From Enterobacteria phage VT2phi_272, in sequence record NC_028656.1: a stretch of 64,000 nt of DNA. One strand, given 5' to 3'. Of this stretch, positions 3,001-9,000 are shown piece after piece (the first letter of the stretch is position 1; each line of letters opens with the position of its first letter). The position numbers are program-made.

Positions 3001-6000
3001 CGTTCACTCTGACAATTCGTTGATCAAGTCACGGTATTTATTCAGTTCTTGCAACGCCTTACATGCACCCTCCCATCGTTTCTGTTTCCGCCCGGCGCGG
3101 CGCGCTTCTTTCCGTGATTTACGTAGCAGGTCACCTATAATGTTGTTCTGCACTGGCTGAACTGGCTGAACTGGTTGAACTGGTTGAACTGAATCAATAT
3201 CTGTTTTGCTTCCAACTCCCTCTACTGCCTGCCAGATGCCGTTTTTTACCTTTACGATCCCCTGGTTTTTCAACTTCCACAGCGTATCAATGACGTCATT
3301 CAAATCAATATTGAGACCTTTAGAAATGCTGTCGGCTGTTGCTTTTCCTAATTTGTTCAATTCTGTGAGTACGGCGTTCATTTTTTTCTCCTGATATTTT
3401 AATGTCGGTGGGGGTGTTATGCGATTGGTGAGGTGTCAGCTTCTTCTACCAGCTTTTCCAGTTCATCCAGCTTTCGGGAAAGAATTTCACCAAACAGATG
3501 AAGTTCTGTATCTGCTGTGATCGGGATCGGAACAAAGCGTATTCCACTTCTGGCAAGTTGATTTGCGATTTCCAGGCACTGCCTTAATTCAACTGGTGAT
3601 GCCTTTGTCAACGTCGTTTTTTCGCTCATTGGTTTTCTCCAGAAATTTAACAATACCCGGAACCATCTCAATGGATGGTGTTCCGCATTGGTTACCCCAG
3701 ACATCAAATCCATGCGAGGTGTGACGGGCGAACAGTTCTATCCGGGGAACATCGCCAAGAAGTTGCACAAGTTTTTCTCGCGCCATATCCGGCTTGCGGG
3801 AGTGATCAAGGCGCGGTGCAGTGAATGACTGGATTATTCCGGCGTTAATGCGTTCAGGCAGATTTCCTTTCACTGCAAAAAGGCAGTCTTCGCTGTTAGC
3901 GCGAGTGGTGCTACCCATACCCATGACCAGCTTGTCGGTCTGTCTTTTCCCGCATTTGTTCCAGGTTAATCCTTTCATCGTCACCAGACGAAAGCCCCAC
4001 GCTTCTACAACCTTCAATGCTTCAAGTGGTTGTGTAGGCACCCACCACATAGCCAACAGGCAATTATCGGCTGCCAGTTCCCATACCGGGAGGCGGCAGA
4101 TATCCAGAAGACTCATGACCGGATATTTAAAACTTGCACCGCGTTGACCATCGGTTGCTTTGTCTCGGAATGTCCAGGGGGGATCTGCGTAAATGAGAGT
4201 GTATTTTTTCGTCATAGCGCGTTTTCAAACTCATCAATGTAAAGTCCTGCTTTAATCAGTCGGCGACGGCGTTCGGCCTTTTGCACGTATTCCTCGCGAC
4301 AGTTTTTTGCTGCGTGTTCACGGCTTCTGCGACTGAATGGAGGAACGGCATTGCGTGAGCGAGGTGTGTCACGACGAGGATTTGATTCGAGGGAGAAAAA
4401 GCGATCAACGATTCCGGTGTCTGTGGTGAATGGTTCTGAAGCCTTTATTTTCACAACCTTACTGCCCTTTGTCAGGCCGCGAGCTACCTTGTTGAACTCG
4501 CAAAGTGAAACACCAAATTTCTCTGCTATTTCACTGCCAGTAACAGGACGACCACGAGACTGAATCATCCAGGTGACGCGTTCTTTTAACCCACGGAAGG
4601 CACCGGGCCTTCCAGAACGCCTGTAGAAAGCGATCTGTTTCAAATTTTTGTCTCCAGATATGAAAACCCCGACGGGATGTCGGGGATGGTAGGGGAAGTT
4701 ACAGGCTTAACGAGAAGCCTTTTCGGGAATTTCGATCTGACAGTCTTGAAATATCCTGTAGCGTGCGGCGCATTTCTTCCGTCAGATGTTTGAAGGCGTT
4801 AAATTCAGCGACAGCCGCATCGACGTTATAGCCCTTGCTGTGTAGTTCGTTGAGGATACGCATGGTTGGGCTTGGCATGTCGAAGAGTACAGAAACGTCC
4901 AGGTTAAGAGTTTTTCGATCAACATAGCTCATCATGGAGTAGGGGTGGTGCTCTGAAAACCACGATAGAGGGTAGTTGATAGATAGTGTTGATTCTGGAA
5001 GCTGAAGTTGTTCTGGGATTTTTTGACTGAAATAGCAGTCTTCCAGTTTTTCGAACACTTCCCACGCCCGATCGGTTTCGAGCATTTTTGCGTGACGGGC
5101 TGCGCCGCGTTCTGTCCAGAGGATGAGGGAGCGAACGTTACGGGCGATTTTCACAGAGTAGTTAAAAGCTACTCTGTGCTTGAACTCACGTAAAGTTTCA
5201 CCTTCAAGTTTGAAGAAGTGTTTTTCCTCAATGAAACGACCTTTGTTTTCGTGGTGATTCTGGCGAATACGAATAGCTTCTGTGCCGTAAAGGTGCGCCA
5301 AAAGTTCGGTAGTGATAACGGGGATCTGCTTGTAAGTAATCGTGGAGAGTGTTTCAACAGAAACTTGAGTTGTCATTATGACGCCCTCGAGTGGTTTCTA
5401 AACTATCACCACCGTTAGGTTCGAATCATCGGGTGGTGAGACGTACAGGGTTCGAACTACCGGGAAACCAACCGGCGAGCTTTTCAGCTCCCCTATACGC
5501 CCCACCATAATTCAGATGTGCGCGTGCATACGACAATAAAAAACACGCTCGCGGCGTGTCTCTGTCGCGGTTTCTATCCGGGGTTCGAATCCCGACGGTC
5601 AACTCGACCGTGCGAAGAATATAATCCCGGATATGTGTTGTCGTCAACAAGTGGCGTGCTATCATCGAATAGTGTTCTATCCTACTCAGTGAGGTTTAAC
5701 ATGCGTACAACCCAACAATTCAGCATTACATTAACCAACGAAATGGCTGACATGGTGCGCGCCCGTGTGGCTTCCGGTGCATACGCTTCAGAAAGCGAAG
5801 TTATTCGTGAAGGGCTTCGTGCACTGAATGAACGCGACAAAGCAATGGAAGCGTGGTTAATACACTCAGCCGCGCCGCCACTCGACGCTATTCGTGAGAA
5901 CCTAGGCAAAGGGCACTCCATTTCACAGGTTCGCTCTGAGATTCGCGCCCGGAACTAATCTGCATGGCATATGAAGTGCCACACTAACAAACTGCTCCAG

Positions 6001-9000
6001 GTATGGGAATAGTGTCACTTGCAGCACCTATTAGAGATCCGATAATGAACATCATAGCAAGGTTCTTTTATTTGATAATTTTCTGCATGGCAACATCAGG
6101 ATGCACTACCACTACGAAAATAAATCGCGGAGATGAAAAGGAACAGTACATCATTGCCTGTGGTGCCGCTACACCATGGGGAGTATGCTATGATAAAGCC
6201 AATGCCCTATGTAAAAATGGATATAAAGACATTTTAAAGGAACAGGGATTTAACAGGAAAGAATTAACCATTGAGTGTAAATAAGGCCATCATTTGCAAC
6301 GTTGAAAAAATTCGCCCGTGCTACAGGGAAAAACTCCAGATCCGCTTCGTTTAACTACGAGGATTACCACTAATGGCGATGTTTACCCCCCCTCATCCTG
6401 GAGAAATTATTGCTGATATTCTGGAAGATCAGAATATTGGAATCAGGGAACTGGCAAGAGCGCTTGATGTCGCGCCTTCCACTGTTCAGCGACTGGTTTC
6501 AGGTAATGCGACAATATCTCCTGAAATGGCTGTTCGTCTCGCTGCTGTCCTGGGGGGAACTCCGTCTTCATGGATTCGTCTCCAGACGGCATGGAGCCTT
6601 GAAAAAGCGGAAAGAGAAGTTGACGTATCTCATCTCTCAACAAAATACCGCCCGGCAGAAATTTCGCCTCATGCTTAACCACCGCGCCGTCATTCTGGCG
6701 GCGTCGGAGAGTGGAGGATATCAGGTTCCGAATTCTGCGTTGTTCTCCGCGTCCAGGATTTCTTCAATCTTCCGTACTCCCCGATTATTGTATCGGAAGC
6801 TTTCTACCTGCTTATCCGAATACGGGGATTTGTCGATGAACCATTTCCCGTATTGTTCGGTTTTGAGCATGTAGGTATTGGCAATGCGACCAACCTTGTT
6901 AGCGGATATTTTGAGTTTTGCTCCAACTTCTGACGCCGAATAGTAATGTTCATTAATCATCGGTAGCGGGATTACGTTAGCGCCTACAACGGGATTAACC
7001 AGGCTGGCGGCAACGACTTGTTTAGCTTCAGGGGCAAGGTTGGGGAGGAAGCCGAAAAGGTCTTTCATTGTATCGACGGTCATTTTCAGCGCCCGTGCTT
7101 TACGGAATTCCTCAAGGCCGTTAGTCGAATGTTTCGAGGTGATTTTTTGTTGCAGTTGCTGTTGCATTGACTCCAGTTGATCGACCAGCGAACGACGGAC
7201 GGATTTAGATTCACGAGCGGCAACCCGAAGCGCTTGTTTATAGGTCATCACAATAACAACCTGATCCGCACCGCCTTTTTTCTTATCCATGGGGGTTACG
7301 AAAATTTCGTAACCCCCCCCCATCAAGTTCATCTTTGATGCGTGCAATGAAGTCGTTGTTGCGTACTTCTTTTTCACCGCACAGTCTCCGCGCTTCATTC
7401 ACCATTTTCAACAGAGCCTGGCTGTCGATAGTTCCATTTTTCATTACATTATTTTTCATCGTTTTAACCTCTCAAGCTCGCCGTAGCGAGTTCAGATAAA
7501 AGAAATCCCCGCGAGTGCGAGGATTCTTATTCACCTTTGACCAAGTTGCAGGTTAGCCACGGTTAACCTCCTGCGGCGGTTCTGGTAGCGGCATCCAGTG
7601 AGTTGCTTGCTCAATACCATTACCCGGCTTAATCGTTGCATCTCCGCGCCGAAAGGTGCTTCCGGTATAGCGTGCGGAGCATATTAGCGGTTCAACCAGA
7701 GAGCTATCGAAATTCACCGAAATAAGCACGTTCTGGCCCTTTTCAGGCATTCGATCACTACAGCTTATCCAACTATCCGGAGTTACCGGAGAGTTACCAG
7801 CCTCATAAGCGGATTTCATCCAGTGCGTAAGCGTTTCGATGCTTACACATCCGCAATCAACGTCTATTTTTTCTTTTTGTTCTGACAACCATTCCTGGAA
7901 TGACAGCTTGGCAGTCTGGCTTGCTGGATCAATTCGTGGCAGGCCGATATATAGTGGTACATTTCCCGGCTCCATCGAATTGTCGGGACAAATAAACGTG
8001 TTACAACCATATTTAACGAGCTCAATTCCCACTGTGTCGATAGTGGCGAATGGTTCAGTGGTCAATGCAGTCAACGCAATTTCATAAGCACGGCGCTCAA
8101 TATTATCTCGCACGTCCAGGCTGCCGATTCGCTCTTTGATTTCTTTAATCATTTCTTTGTCGGTGAACGTTGTCATGTGTTAGTCCTTATCCACTTCAAC
8201 GCCATCTTTCAGCGTGATGCCGTGCCAATCATCAGCCCAACTGGTTAACCCAGGCGCATCAATGCTAGGCATATAGACGCTTGCAGTGTGGTAGCCCTTA
8301 TCGTTATCAATGCTGGCAACGTGCTCGCCGTTGTATGCGCTCAGCGTGTCTAGGACACTATAAAACTTTCCTCCGGCTGCCCTGAAATCCTTTACAGCCT
8401 TCACAAGACGATTCCACGCTTTTTCCTGTTCTGGCGTCAGGTCGATTAATTCCTGCAAAGTTGCCATTTCAGTTTTCCTTATATGGGTTAATTTTATTGT
8501 GCAGTGTGTTGAACGACGCCCATACCACGTCGTTATACAACTCAATAACTAGCTCAATTATTTTCCCGATTGCCCAGACAAAAATTAGCGGGGATATCGG
8601 TGTCATCAACACGATAAACAGAATGAGAAACAAAAATTCTGTCGCTCTACTTTTTCGCGGATATTCTTTTCTGAATAATGTAGGCACATCACTCTCCTTT
8701 GTTGCTCCTCAAAATTTTATGCCCTGGCGCAAAAGCACGCGTTTTGTCTTTGTTTATTCGCCAGCCATCCTTGCGCGCCTCTTTTGCACAGCCAGCCCAT
8801 GACGTACCGATATACTCACCGAAATCTGGCGTTTGATATTTACCATTTGTACACTGGCGACAATCACAGTAGAGATGCATGGTGTAACTTGCGGCAATAG
8901 CCATATCCCCCTCCTTTACCCTGAAGCATGGCGTCGCTCCGCTCTATACCATCCAGCGCGATTCGCAGTGCCTGAATTGTGGTAGTGCTATCGTTTGGGG

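What the first reader, a model, noticed from the sequence alone, without database searches (positions are those of the whole stretch)
5701..6678. Toxin-less antitoxin island: ParD and HigA antitoxins flanked by toxin-gene stubs around a lipoprotein gene
A plus-strand island inside the minus-strand early operon encodes an intact ParD antitoxin followed by only a 7-codon ORF (MAYEVPH*) where ParE should start, then a lipoprotein, then a 30-codon start-less frame ending ...FNYEDYH* (the conserved C-terminus of Rts1-type HigB) whose stop overlaps the ATG of an intact HigA antitoxin. Both toxins appear deleted while both antitoxins are kept. Retained orphan antitoxins in a prophage could neutralise host toxin-antitoxin abortive-infection systems or act as anti-addiction factors.
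Basis: partly seen in the sequence, partly recalled or inferred. Interest (0 to 1): 0.65.

Follow-up and report, generated by a model that had tools for sequence, protein, structure and literature searches.

The report
Toxin-less antitoxin patchwork in Stx2a prophage
A Shiga-toxin prophage of the PA2 type keeps two intact antitoxin genes (ParD, HigA) whose toxin partners were cut away by recombination. This is a real but already published feature, and it most likely reflects mosaic gene-swapping rather than a proven anti-defence device.

Summary
Window 5701-6678 lies in an Oslovirus PA2-type Stx2a prophage. It encodes an intact ParD and an intact HigA but no toxin, here or anywhere else in the 64 kb.

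The island carries remnants of four genes, not two:
- the first 14 nt of parE (5964-5977);
- the 3' end of a moron gene from P22-like phages (5987-6034);
- the 3' end of a third module's XRE antitoxin gene (6287-6356);
- the last 23 nt of higB (6351-6373).

Only NYEDYH* comes from higB.

Sister Osloviruses carry intact parDE (ArgO145) or intact higBA (GER2) at this same locus. PA2 reads as ArgO145-like left arm, middle patch, then GER2-like right arm.

Polymorphism within the toxin-less island looks neutral (9 nonsynonymous or nonsense changes to 3 synonymous). That count includes a premature stop in higA seen in two genomes. Only 5 of 42 island-bearing genomes hold a second parD-like copy.

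The two orphan antitoxins in this phage species were published in 2025, with the same anti-defence speculation. The most likely reading is a recombination scar, now working as an operon driven by the parD promoter (ParD autorepressor, lipoprotein, HigA). Antitoxin immunity against sister prophages remains possible and can be tested directly.

The parts
5638..5665 (+). Predicted sigma-70 promoter of parD (TTGTCG, 16 nt, TATCAT, with an extended TG). It lies back to back with the minus-strand isrK promoter (5647..5618). The two -35 boxes sit inside a small palindrome, TGTTG-TCGT-CAACA (5636-5649).
   Evidence: Consensus scan. The palindrome was read by eye, and the repeat finder at seed 6 found nothing. 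This stretch is 100% identical to phage ArgO145, which has intact parDE.
5701..5958 (+). parD: an intact 85-aa antitoxin of the ribbon-helix-helix (RHH) type, with no toxin partner (orphan).
   Evidence: Pfam PF03693, TIGR02606 and phrog_6494. PDB ParD hits cover residues 6-51. It is a divergent allele (14% nt divergence over 5699-5967) set in a backbone otherwise identical to ArgO145.
5964..5977 (+). parE stub: the first 14 nt of the toxin gene. It forms part of the 7-codon ORF 5964-5987, MAYEVPH*.
   Evidence: 14 of 14 identity with the start of the intact parE in L007/L008, and 13 of 14 with STEC719 and ArgO145. Homology ends at 5977.
5987..6034 (+). 3' remnant (...GNSVTCSTY*) of a 121-aa gene that precedes the lipoprotein gene in P22-like phages.
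   Evidence: blastn of window 5987-6291 against L018/L019 gives 84.6% identity. The conserved C-terminal codons were confirmed by translation.
6045..6284 (+). Small cysteine-rich lipoprotein gene (79 aa, lipobox ...SGC, Thr at +2). This is the cargo of the middle patch. Its function is unknown.
   Evidence: phrog_9924, function unknown. Only three homologue clusters were found, and the lipobox and four cysteines are conserved among them. Homologues lie between the tailspike and gp16 genes of P22-like phages, or after an Arc-like RHH gene. The AF2 model (pLDDT 75) matches only an uncharacterised phage 'lipoprotein'.
6287..6356 (+). 3' remnant of an XRE/HTH antitoxin gene from a third TA module (the partner of a Gp49-family toxin). 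It carries a 1-nt deletion in the A-run 6329-6333.
   Evidence: 95% identical to the end of the HTH gene in JNEC-KY176, and 94-98% identical to about 30 other genomes. The partner toxin matches Pfam Gp49 at 8.6e-26. Other island copies have A6 in the run.
6351..6373 (+). higB stub: the last 23 nt (NYEDYH*). It contains the Shine-Dalgarno sequence of higA (GAGG, 6359-6362). A 6-nt microhomology, TTAACT, joins it to the HTH remnant.
   Evidence: Identity with intact higBA of strain 05-3629 and phage GER2 starts at 6351. The intact HigB matches Pfam HigB-like_toxin at 1.4e-21 and Rts1 HigB in the PDB at 3e-32.
6373..6678 (+). higA: an intact 101-aa HTH antitoxin, with no toxin partner (orphan).
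   Evidence: TIGR02607 87.2 bits and HTH_3. PDB 2icp and 4mcx. It differs by one residue (N5T) from the HigA paired with HigB.
6681..6709 (+). GC-rich hairpin at the end of the higA module. Homology to higBA loci ends at 6703.
   Evidence: Folding gives -22.1 kcal/mol, z = -2.2. The alignment break is at 6703. No T-run follows, so it is not a canonical terminator.
5429..5611 (-). Left flank, not part of the island: isrK (5538-5611) and C4 antisense RNA (5429-5512). Both lie upstream of the ORF6N antirepressor gene (4699-5376).
   Evidence: Rfam: C4 70.1 bits (gathering score 45), isrK 53 bits (gathering score 50). ORF6N Pfam 1e-19.

Best explanation
**What it is.** The island is a recombination scar at an accessory-gene hot-spot of Oslovirus-type Stx phages. 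The hot-spot lies just beside the isrK-C4-antirepressor module.

**How it arose.**
- Sister phages carry alternative toxin-antitoxin (TA) cassettes at this site: parDE in ArgO145 and higBA in GER2.
- In the PA2 lineage, successive cassette exchanges joined an ArgO145-like left arm to a GER2-like right arm through a middle patch.
- The middle patch holds a lipoprotein moron related to one in P22-like phages, plus the tail of a third TA module.
- Every crossover fell inside or beside a toxin gene. Only recombinants that lose the toxin, or keep the antitoxin, are viable or detectable. Antitoxins therefore survive as orphans.

**How it works now (inferred).**
- The retained, conserved parD promoter drives one plus-strand transcript: parD, lipoprotein, higA.
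- ParD, through its invariant RHH domain, still represses its own promoter.
- The lipoprotein is the likely selected cargo.
- HigA is translated from its retained Shine-Dalgarno sequence but has no operator in the phage. It is largely a passenger.

**What it is not.** It is not a TA system, and nothing shows it to be a dedicated anti-defence device.
For: **Shown**
- Junctions are mapped at 5977/5978, about 5987, about 6287, 6351-6356 and 6703.
- The window is 100% identical to ArgO145 from 4000 to 5698. It then carries a divergent parD allele, and homology is lost 14 nt into parE.
- The window is colinear with GER2 over 6351-6903 and 7190-8189.
- Strain 05-3629 has intact higBA directly beside isrK and C4.
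- higB was replaced independently at least twice, at different junctions: 6351 in the island and KY176, and 6362 in KY203.
- No toxin is present in the window.
- Within nine island copies, changes run 9 nonsynonymous or nonsense to 3 synonymous. Noncoding sites change at a similar rate.
- A higA G10* allele occurs in two genomes.
- ParD changes are confined to the C-terminal, toxin-binding half: 0 nonsynonymous to 3 synonymous in the N-terminal half against 6 to 1 in the C-terminal half, compared with the closest paired allele.
- Only 5 of 42 island genomes have a second parD-like locus, against roughly 2.5 expected by chance. None of the island genomes listed has a second higA.
- The promoter was predicted, and no plus-strand terminator was predicted between 5958 and 6678.
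- The candidate HigA operator half-site of the higBA promoter is absent from the window.

**From established knowledge (not tested here)**
- ParD of RK2 represses parDE without needing ParE.
Against: - HigA is identical or nearly identical to the paired protein. The comparison between 05-3629 (paired) and KY176 (orphan) shows 0 nonsynonymous to 11 synonymous changes. That could mean purifying selection on an orphan.
- The Shine-Dalgarno sequence of higA is retained exactly at the junction.
- The island persists in at least two right-flank contexts and in several serotypes: O157:H7, O111:H8, O22:H8 and O43.
- The polymorphism counts are tiny. Recent variants always inflate dN/dS, so the 'neutral' signal has low power.
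- The operon structure and ParD autoregulation are inferred, not measured.
Confidence: 0.6

Rival explanations
1. The orphan antitoxins are a selected immunity cassette. PA2-type phages express ParD and HigA to neutralise ParE and HigB toxins. Sister prophages carry those toxins at the same locus, and other hosts or plasmids may carry them too. This would let PA2 superinfect, co-reside with or displace TA-bearing prophages without toxin-mediated killing, acting as anti-addiction or anti-abortive-infection.
For: - Cognate intact modules circulate in the same phage genus and host pool: ArgO145 parDE and GER2 higBA.
- Paired parDE is found in 323 of 5,426 E. coli genomes, and paired higBA in about 20.
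- PA2 HigA differs by one residue from the paired HigA, and several island copies are identical to it.
- The promoter and the Shine-Dalgarno sequence are retained.
- O111:H8 strains carry both the island and a second parD-like locus.
- There is precedent for phage orphan antitoxin-like counter-defence: DarG-like NADAR proteins (PMC11825919).
Against: - Substitution within the island looks neutral, and there is a higA nonsense allele.
- ParD is only 87% identical to the common paired allele. Eleven of its 38 C-terminal, toxin-binding residues differ, so cross-neutralisation is uncertain.
- Co-occurrence with toxins is not clearly enriched.
- PADLOC gave no significant hit, and DefenseFinder does not recognise them (PMC12502783).
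- That paper also notes that no classic type II antitoxin has been verified in such a role.
- Retention of the antitoxins is expected from survivorship alone.
Confidence: 0.25
2. The antitoxins have been co-opted purely as transcription factors. ParD would control the divergent isrK-C4-antirepressor promoter and so influence prophage induction. HigA would regulate other phage or host genes.
For: - The parD and isrK promoters are back to back, with overlapping -35 boxes inside a small palindrome (sequence read directly).
- The RHH domain of ParD shows no amino-acid change across the alleles compared.
- The promoter region is far better conserved than synonymous sites.
- A lipoprotein homologue sits directly downstream of an Arc-like RHH repressor gene in another contig.
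Against: - The same promoter architecture exists in ArgO145 with intact parDE, so it is not special to the orphan state.
- No HigA operator-like site was found in the window.
- No inverted repeat of 6 nt or more was detected in the promoter region.
- No expression or binding data exist.
Confidence: 0.1
3. The two genes are inert pseudogene-like debris. They are neither expressed nor functional and are on their way to deletion.
For: Substitutions look neutral, and there is a G10* allele in higA. Four gene stubs show ongoing decay.
Against: - Both ORFs are full length in nearly all of more than 85 records.
- The parD promoter and Shine-Dalgarno sequence are intact and identical to those of a functional parDE phage.
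- The lipoprotein gene downstream has no predicted promoter of its own and probably depends on the parD promoter.
Confidence: 0.05

Closest known systems
parDE type II TA module of lambdoid and Stx prophages (e.g. phage ArgO145 KY914478; E. coli STEC719 prophage)
   Same: Same locus, with the promoter region identical to ArgO145. ParD is an 85-aa RHH antitoxin, 87-94% identical to the paired alleles compared. The first 14 nt of parE are retained.
   Different: ParE is absent beyond codon 5. The C-terminal, toxin-binding half of ParD has diverged. The promoter now appears to read into a lipoprotein gene and higA.
higBA of Rts1 type (Proteus vulgaris HigB/HigA, PDB 4mct/4mcx; phage GER2 MG710528; E. 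coli 05-3629 prophage)
   Same: HigA is 99-100% identical to the HigA paired with a 92-aa HigB in GER2 and 05-3629. The TAATG stop/start overlap and the Shine-Dalgarno sequence are retained, and the right flank matches GER2.
   Different: Only 23 nt of higB remain. The higBA promoter and operator are gone, so HigA has no cognate operator in cis.
Orphan antitoxins and anti-addiction modules (chromosomal ccd of Erwinia against F ccd; orphan antitoxins surveyed in E. coli, PMC10790755)
   Same: An antitoxin gene without its toxin, carried on a mobile element integrated in the chromosome. It has the potential to neutralise a homologous toxin arriving in trans.
   Different: No neutralisation has been demonstrated. 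Here the origin by toxin-gene replacement is mapped to the nucleotide.
Phage counter-defence antitoxin mimics (T4 Dmd against RnlA/LsoA; DarG-like AdfN NADAR proteins, PMC11825919; pseudo-ToxI)
   Same: A phage-borne protein related to, or acting as, an antitoxin without a linked toxin.
   Different: Those come from lytic phages and have shown activity. Here classic type II proteic antitoxins sit in a temperate phage with no functional data, and one natural higA allele is truncated.
Mosaic 'moron' loci of lambdoid phages
   Same: Patchwork of short segments with sharp homology breaks, microhomology at junctions, and cargo (a lipoprotein) shared with unrelated P22-like phages.
   Different: An unusual density of TA-derived pieces: three modules within about 1 kb.

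Membership tests
ParD antitoxin family (PF03693 / TIGR02606) | Sequence match above the curated cut-offs, with an N-terminal ribbon-helix-helix domain | tested here: met
   PF03693 32.7 bits (cut-off 21). TIGR02606 53.4 bits (cut-off 46.2). PDB ParD chains align to residues 6-51.
parDE type II toxin-antitoxin system | An adjacent intact ParE toxin gene | tested here: not met
   Only 14 nt of parE remain (5964-5977). tblastn of ParE against the whole window found nothing better than E = 0.13.
HigA antitoxin family (TIGR02607 equivalog; HTH_3) | Sequence match above the cut-off and similarity to solved HigA structures | tested here: met
   TIGR02607 87.2 bits (cut-off 47.7). 2icp E = 4.7e-27 and 4mcx E = 1.4e-19.
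higBA type II toxin-antitoxin system | An intact HigB gene upstream, overlapping higA, with its own promoter and operator | tested here: not met
   Only 23 nt of higB remain (6351-6373). The candidate operator half-site of the intact locus is absent from the window.
Gp49 (PF05973) / XRE-HTH toxin-antitoxin module | Toxin and HTH antitoxin genes both present | tested here: not met
   Only the last 70 nt or so of the HTH gene remain (6287-6356), and they are frameshifted. There is no Gp49 homologue in the window.
Phage anti-defence proteins / known defence-system components | A match to curated defence or anti-defence models, or a demonstrated neutralisation of a host toxin | tested here: not met
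   PADLOC gave no hit for ParD, and only a weak HTH match for HigA (E = 3e-4). DefenseFinder was negative according to PMC12502783. Neutralisation itself cannot be tested with these tools.
Anti-addiction module | The orphan antitoxin neutralises a homologous toxin supplied in trans, and so allows loss or displacement of the element that carries it | not testable with these tools
   Sequence identity to the paired HigA (99-100%) makes HigB binding plausible. For ParD, identity of 87-94% makes it uncertain.
Bacterial lipoprotein | An N-terminal signal peptide ending in a lipobox with an invariant Cys | tested here: met
   The signal peptide reads MNIIARFFYLIIFCMATSG|C. The Cys and the following TTT are invariant in 4 homologues. 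No signal-peptide predictor was available.

The most novel reading that the evidence does not exclude
PA2-type Stx2a phages carry a dual-antitoxin 'master key'. By keeping ParD and HigA but neither toxin, they would be immune to both TA cassettes that sister Osloviruses place at this same locus. That would let them superinfect, recombine with or displace ParDE- or HigBA-armed prophages. It would be the first case of classic type II antitoxins serving as inter-prophage counter-addiction or counter-exclusion factors.
Probability: 0.2. Interest if true: 0.7.

Novelty: already known. Interest (0 to 1): 0.3.

Why it matters
Whether orphan classic type II antitoxins carried by phages do anything is still an open question. 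PMC12502783 states that no verified example exists.

This locus offers a natural, near-isogenic trio for testing it:
- PA2 carries both antitoxins and no toxin.
- ArgO145 carries intact parDE and is 100% identical to the window's left arm up to parD.
- GER2 carries intact higBA and shares the right arm.

If the antitoxins prove functional, they would bear on competition among Shiga-toxin prophages and on the spread of stx2a phages. If they do not, the locus is a clean textbook example of how TA modules decay by losing the toxin first, and of how lambdoid mosaics are assembled.

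Tried and rejected
- **An intact toxin with a non-ATG start, or located elsewhere.** Rejected. tblastn with ParE, HigB and Gp49 toxins against all six frames of the 64 kb found nothing.
- **The whole 30-codon frame as a HigB remnant.** Rejected by alignment to intact higBA and to KY176.
- **Lipoprotein start at 6003.** Rejected in favour of 6045, because the upstream codons are the tail of another gene.
- **Function of the lipoprotein.**
  - Pfam and NCBIfam gave nothing, and the PHROG families have unknown function.
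  - The AF2 model (pLDDT 75) had no PDB match at E <= 0.001.
  - In the viral library it matched only an unnamed phage lipoprotein.
- **RNA elements inside the island.** Rfam found C4 and isrK only in the left flank.
- **Operators.** No inverted repeat with a 6-nt seed was found in the parD promoter. No HigA operator half-site was found in the window.
- **Defence-system membership.** PADLOC was negative.
- **Selection test.** Counts are too small to be decisive, and the two signals conflict:
  - within the island, 9 nonsynonymous or nonsense to 3 synonymous;
  - higA in 05-3629 against KY176, 0 nonsynonymous to 11 synonymous.
  - A recombination breakpoint anywhere in 6351-6472 could explain the second result without any selection on the orphan.
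- **Assembly artefact.** Rejected. The island is identical in many independent complete genomes.

Full report
**Context**

The window is an E. coli chromosome segment carrying a PA2-type Stx2a prophage (genus Oslovirus). Window 5380-6720 is 100% identical to phages vB_EcoP_phi346, PA2 and Stx2a_F765. The prophage sits next to a tRNA-Arg(CCT) gene. Unlike the PA2 record, it lacks the IS insertion in the methylase gene.

The finding lies between two minus-strand antirepressor genes. These are 4699-5376 (ORF6N domain) and 6721-7398.

**Checking the observation**

ParD (5701-5958) and HigA (6373-6678) are intact and pass the curated thresholds of their families:
- ParD: PF03693 32.7 bits (cut-off 21) and TIGR02606 53.4 bits (cut-off 46.2).
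- HigA: TIGR02607 87.2 bits (cut-off 47.7).
- PDB matches: ParD1 3kxe, and HigA 2icp and 4mcx.

The 7-codon ORF MAYEVPH* is at 5964-5987. Its first 14 nt match 14 of 14 the start of an intact 103-aa ParE (MAYEVIITPE...). That ParE lies beside a ParD 94% identical to this one in two metagenomic contigs. The same 14 nt match 13 of 14 the parE of the STEC719 prophage and of phage ArgO145. Homology ends at 5977.

The frame ending ...FNYEDYH* is only partly higB:
- Identity with intact higBA (strain 05-3629, phage GER2) begins at 6351. Only NYEDYH* (6353-6373) is HigB-derived. The intact protein ends GDAYILNYEDYH, as does Rts1 HigB.
- The preceding 65 nt or so (6287-6356) are the 3' end of an XRE/HTH antitoxin gene. 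In strain JNEC-KY176 that gene follows a Gp49-family toxin and precedes an orphan higA.
- The two remnants meet at a 6-nt microhomology, TTAACT.
- They read as one frame only because this lineage lost one A from an A6 run (6329-6333). Other island copies keep A6, and there the HTH remnant stops at its own TAA.

A fourth stub lies at 5987-6034. It is the tail of a 121-aa gene that precedes the lipoprotein gene in P22-like phages. This also fixes the lipoprotein start at 6045.

No ParE, HigB or Gp49 toxin is encoded anywhere in the window.

**Where the pieces come from**

- *Left arm.* The window is 100% identical to Stx2a phage ArgO145 from 4000 to 5698. That span covers the antirepressor gene, C4, isrK and the parD promoter. 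The window then carries a divergent parD allele (38 mismatches in 269 nt) and loses homology 14 nt into parE. ArgO145 has intact parDE there.
- *Right arm.* Window 6351-6903 and 7190-8189 are colinear with phage GER2, which has intact higBA.
- *Strain 05-3629.* Its prophage has intact higBA immediately beside isrK and C4.
- *Middle patch.* Window 5987-6291 is 84.6% identical to a two-gene moron lying between the tailspike and gp16 genes of P22-like phages.

PA2 therefore reads as ArgO145-like left arm, then lipoprotein patch, then a KY176-type HTH/higB junction, then GER2-like right arm.

Further points on history and distribution:
- higB has been replaced at least twice independently. The junction is at 6351 in the island and KY176, and at 6362 in KY203/KY177, where a RelE(PF06296)-HTH pair precedes higA.
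- The island occurs in 42 of 5,426 complete E. coli genomes, in serotypes O157:H7, O111:H8, O22:H8 and O43. It has at least two different right flanks.

**How it probably works**

A sigma-70-like promoter (5638-5665) precedes parD. It lies back to back with the isrK promoter. It is identical to that of the functional parDE phage ArgO145.

No plus-strand terminator is predicted before the hairpin after higA. No promoter was predicted for the lipoprotein gene.

I therefore infer one transcript, parD-lipoprotein-higA, repressed by ParD. ParD of RK2 represses parDE without ParE; this is established knowledge and was not tested here.

The HigA operator-like half-sites of the intact higBA promoter are absent from the window. 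HigA therefore has no obvious target in cis.

**Is there selection on the orphans?**

Evidence pointing to relaxed constraint:
- Nine island copies differ at 12 coding sites: 9 nonsynonymous or nonsense against 3 synonymous. They also differ by 3 substitutions and 1 indel across 264 noncoding nt, which is about the neutral expectation.
- The coding changes include a higA G10* allele found in two genomes.
- Against the closest paired allele, ParD shows 0 nonsynonymous to 3 synonymous changes in the RHH half, but 6 to 1 in the toxin-binding half.
- Two paired alleles compared with each other give omega 0.11.

Evidence pointing the other way:
- higA of 05-3629 (paired) against KY176 (orphan) shows 0 nonsynonymous to 11 synonymous changes.
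- Several island copies encode a HigA identical to the paired protein.
- A recombination breakpoint in 6351-6472 could explain this without selection on the orphan.

Both signals are weak.

On co-occurrence, only 5 of 42 island genomes hold a second parD-like locus, against roughly 2.5 expected from 323 of 5,426. None of the island genomes listed holds a second higA. The original PA2 host has neither.

Retention of antitoxins is also what survivorship predicts. Losing the antitoxin first is lethal, and losing both genes leaves nothing to find.

**Comparison with what is known**

The two orphan antitoxins in phi346 and phi349 (Oslovirus PA2) were reported in 2025. That paper made the same suggestion, that they might counter host toxins. 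It also noted that DefenseFinder does not recognise them and that no classic type II antitoxin has been verified in such a role (PMC12502783).

Orphan antitoxins are abundant in E. coli (PMC10790755). A phage orphan antitoxin-like counter-defence is known for DarTG1 (PMC11825919). PADLOC gave no significant hits.

The locus meets the family tests for ParD and HigA. It fails the tests for a TA system, because the toxins are absent.

**Verdict**

The feature is real, and its anatomy is now resolved to the nucleotide. In kind it is ordinary, a decayed and recombined TA hot-spot, and it is already published. What this analysis adds is the four stubs, the third TA module, the sister-phage parents and the neutral-looking polymorphism.

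The immunity-cassette reading stays open at about 0.2-0.25. It can be tested directly with the natural trio of PA2, ArgO145 and GER2.

Noticed in passing
window 5429-5611 (-) with 4699-5376 (-): C4 antisense RNA (70 bits) and the isrK sRNA (53 bits) lie in tandem upstream of an ORF6N antirepressor gene. This resembles the immI module of P1/P7 and the isrK module of Gifsy-1, here in an Stx2a phage. The same trio sits beside intact higBA in strain 05-3629, which also has an sRNA-Xcc1 hit.
   Followed up: partly
window 5618-5665: The isrK and parD promoters are back to back. Their -35 boxes (TTGACG and TTGTCG) overlap inside a small palindrome, TGTTG-TCGT-CAACA (5636-5649). A ParD operator there could couple antitoxin autoregulation to expression of isrK, C4 and the antirepressor. 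This is untested.
   Followed up: partly
L020:645-1135; L018:3625-4240: Homologues of the lipoprotein occur directly downstream of an Arc-like RHH repressor gene, with a 4-nt overlap, in one contig. In P22-like phages they lie in the sieA/immI position, between the tailspike and gp16 genes. This hints at a superinfection-exclusion or lysogenic-conversion role.
   Followed up: partly
L015:1818-2818 (E. coli JNEC-KY203); L005:1942-2893 (JNEC-KY176): Three-gene arrangements occur: toxin (RelE PF06296 or Gp49), HTH antitoxin, then orphan HigA. They have different junctions. A complete TA pair therefore sits immediately upstream of an orphan higA in other prophages.
   Followed up: partly
window 1320-1394 (-) and about 1371 onward: A tRNA-Arg(CCT) gene (argW-like) lies at the left prophage end. 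The window begins about 1.37 kb before position 1 of the PA2 phage record, so this is a prophage integrated in the chromosome.
   Followed up: partly
window about 3810-3828, compared with L002:2137-3432: The PA2 reference record has a roughly 1.3-kb IS3-family insertion splitting the DNA methyltransferase gene. This window lacks it, as does phi346.
   Followed up: partly
window 27183-27434 (+): A cluster of three tRNA genes was found: Met(CAT), Arg(TCG) and Arg(TCT).
   Followed up: no
L016:1608-1880 (E. coli 2015C-3121); L006:3707-3979: A higA allele has GGA changed to TGA at codon 10. Both the RefSeq annotation and the gene caller list it as a 90-aa 'HigA' from a downstream start. It is probably a disrupted gene that is annotated as intact.
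   Followed up: yes
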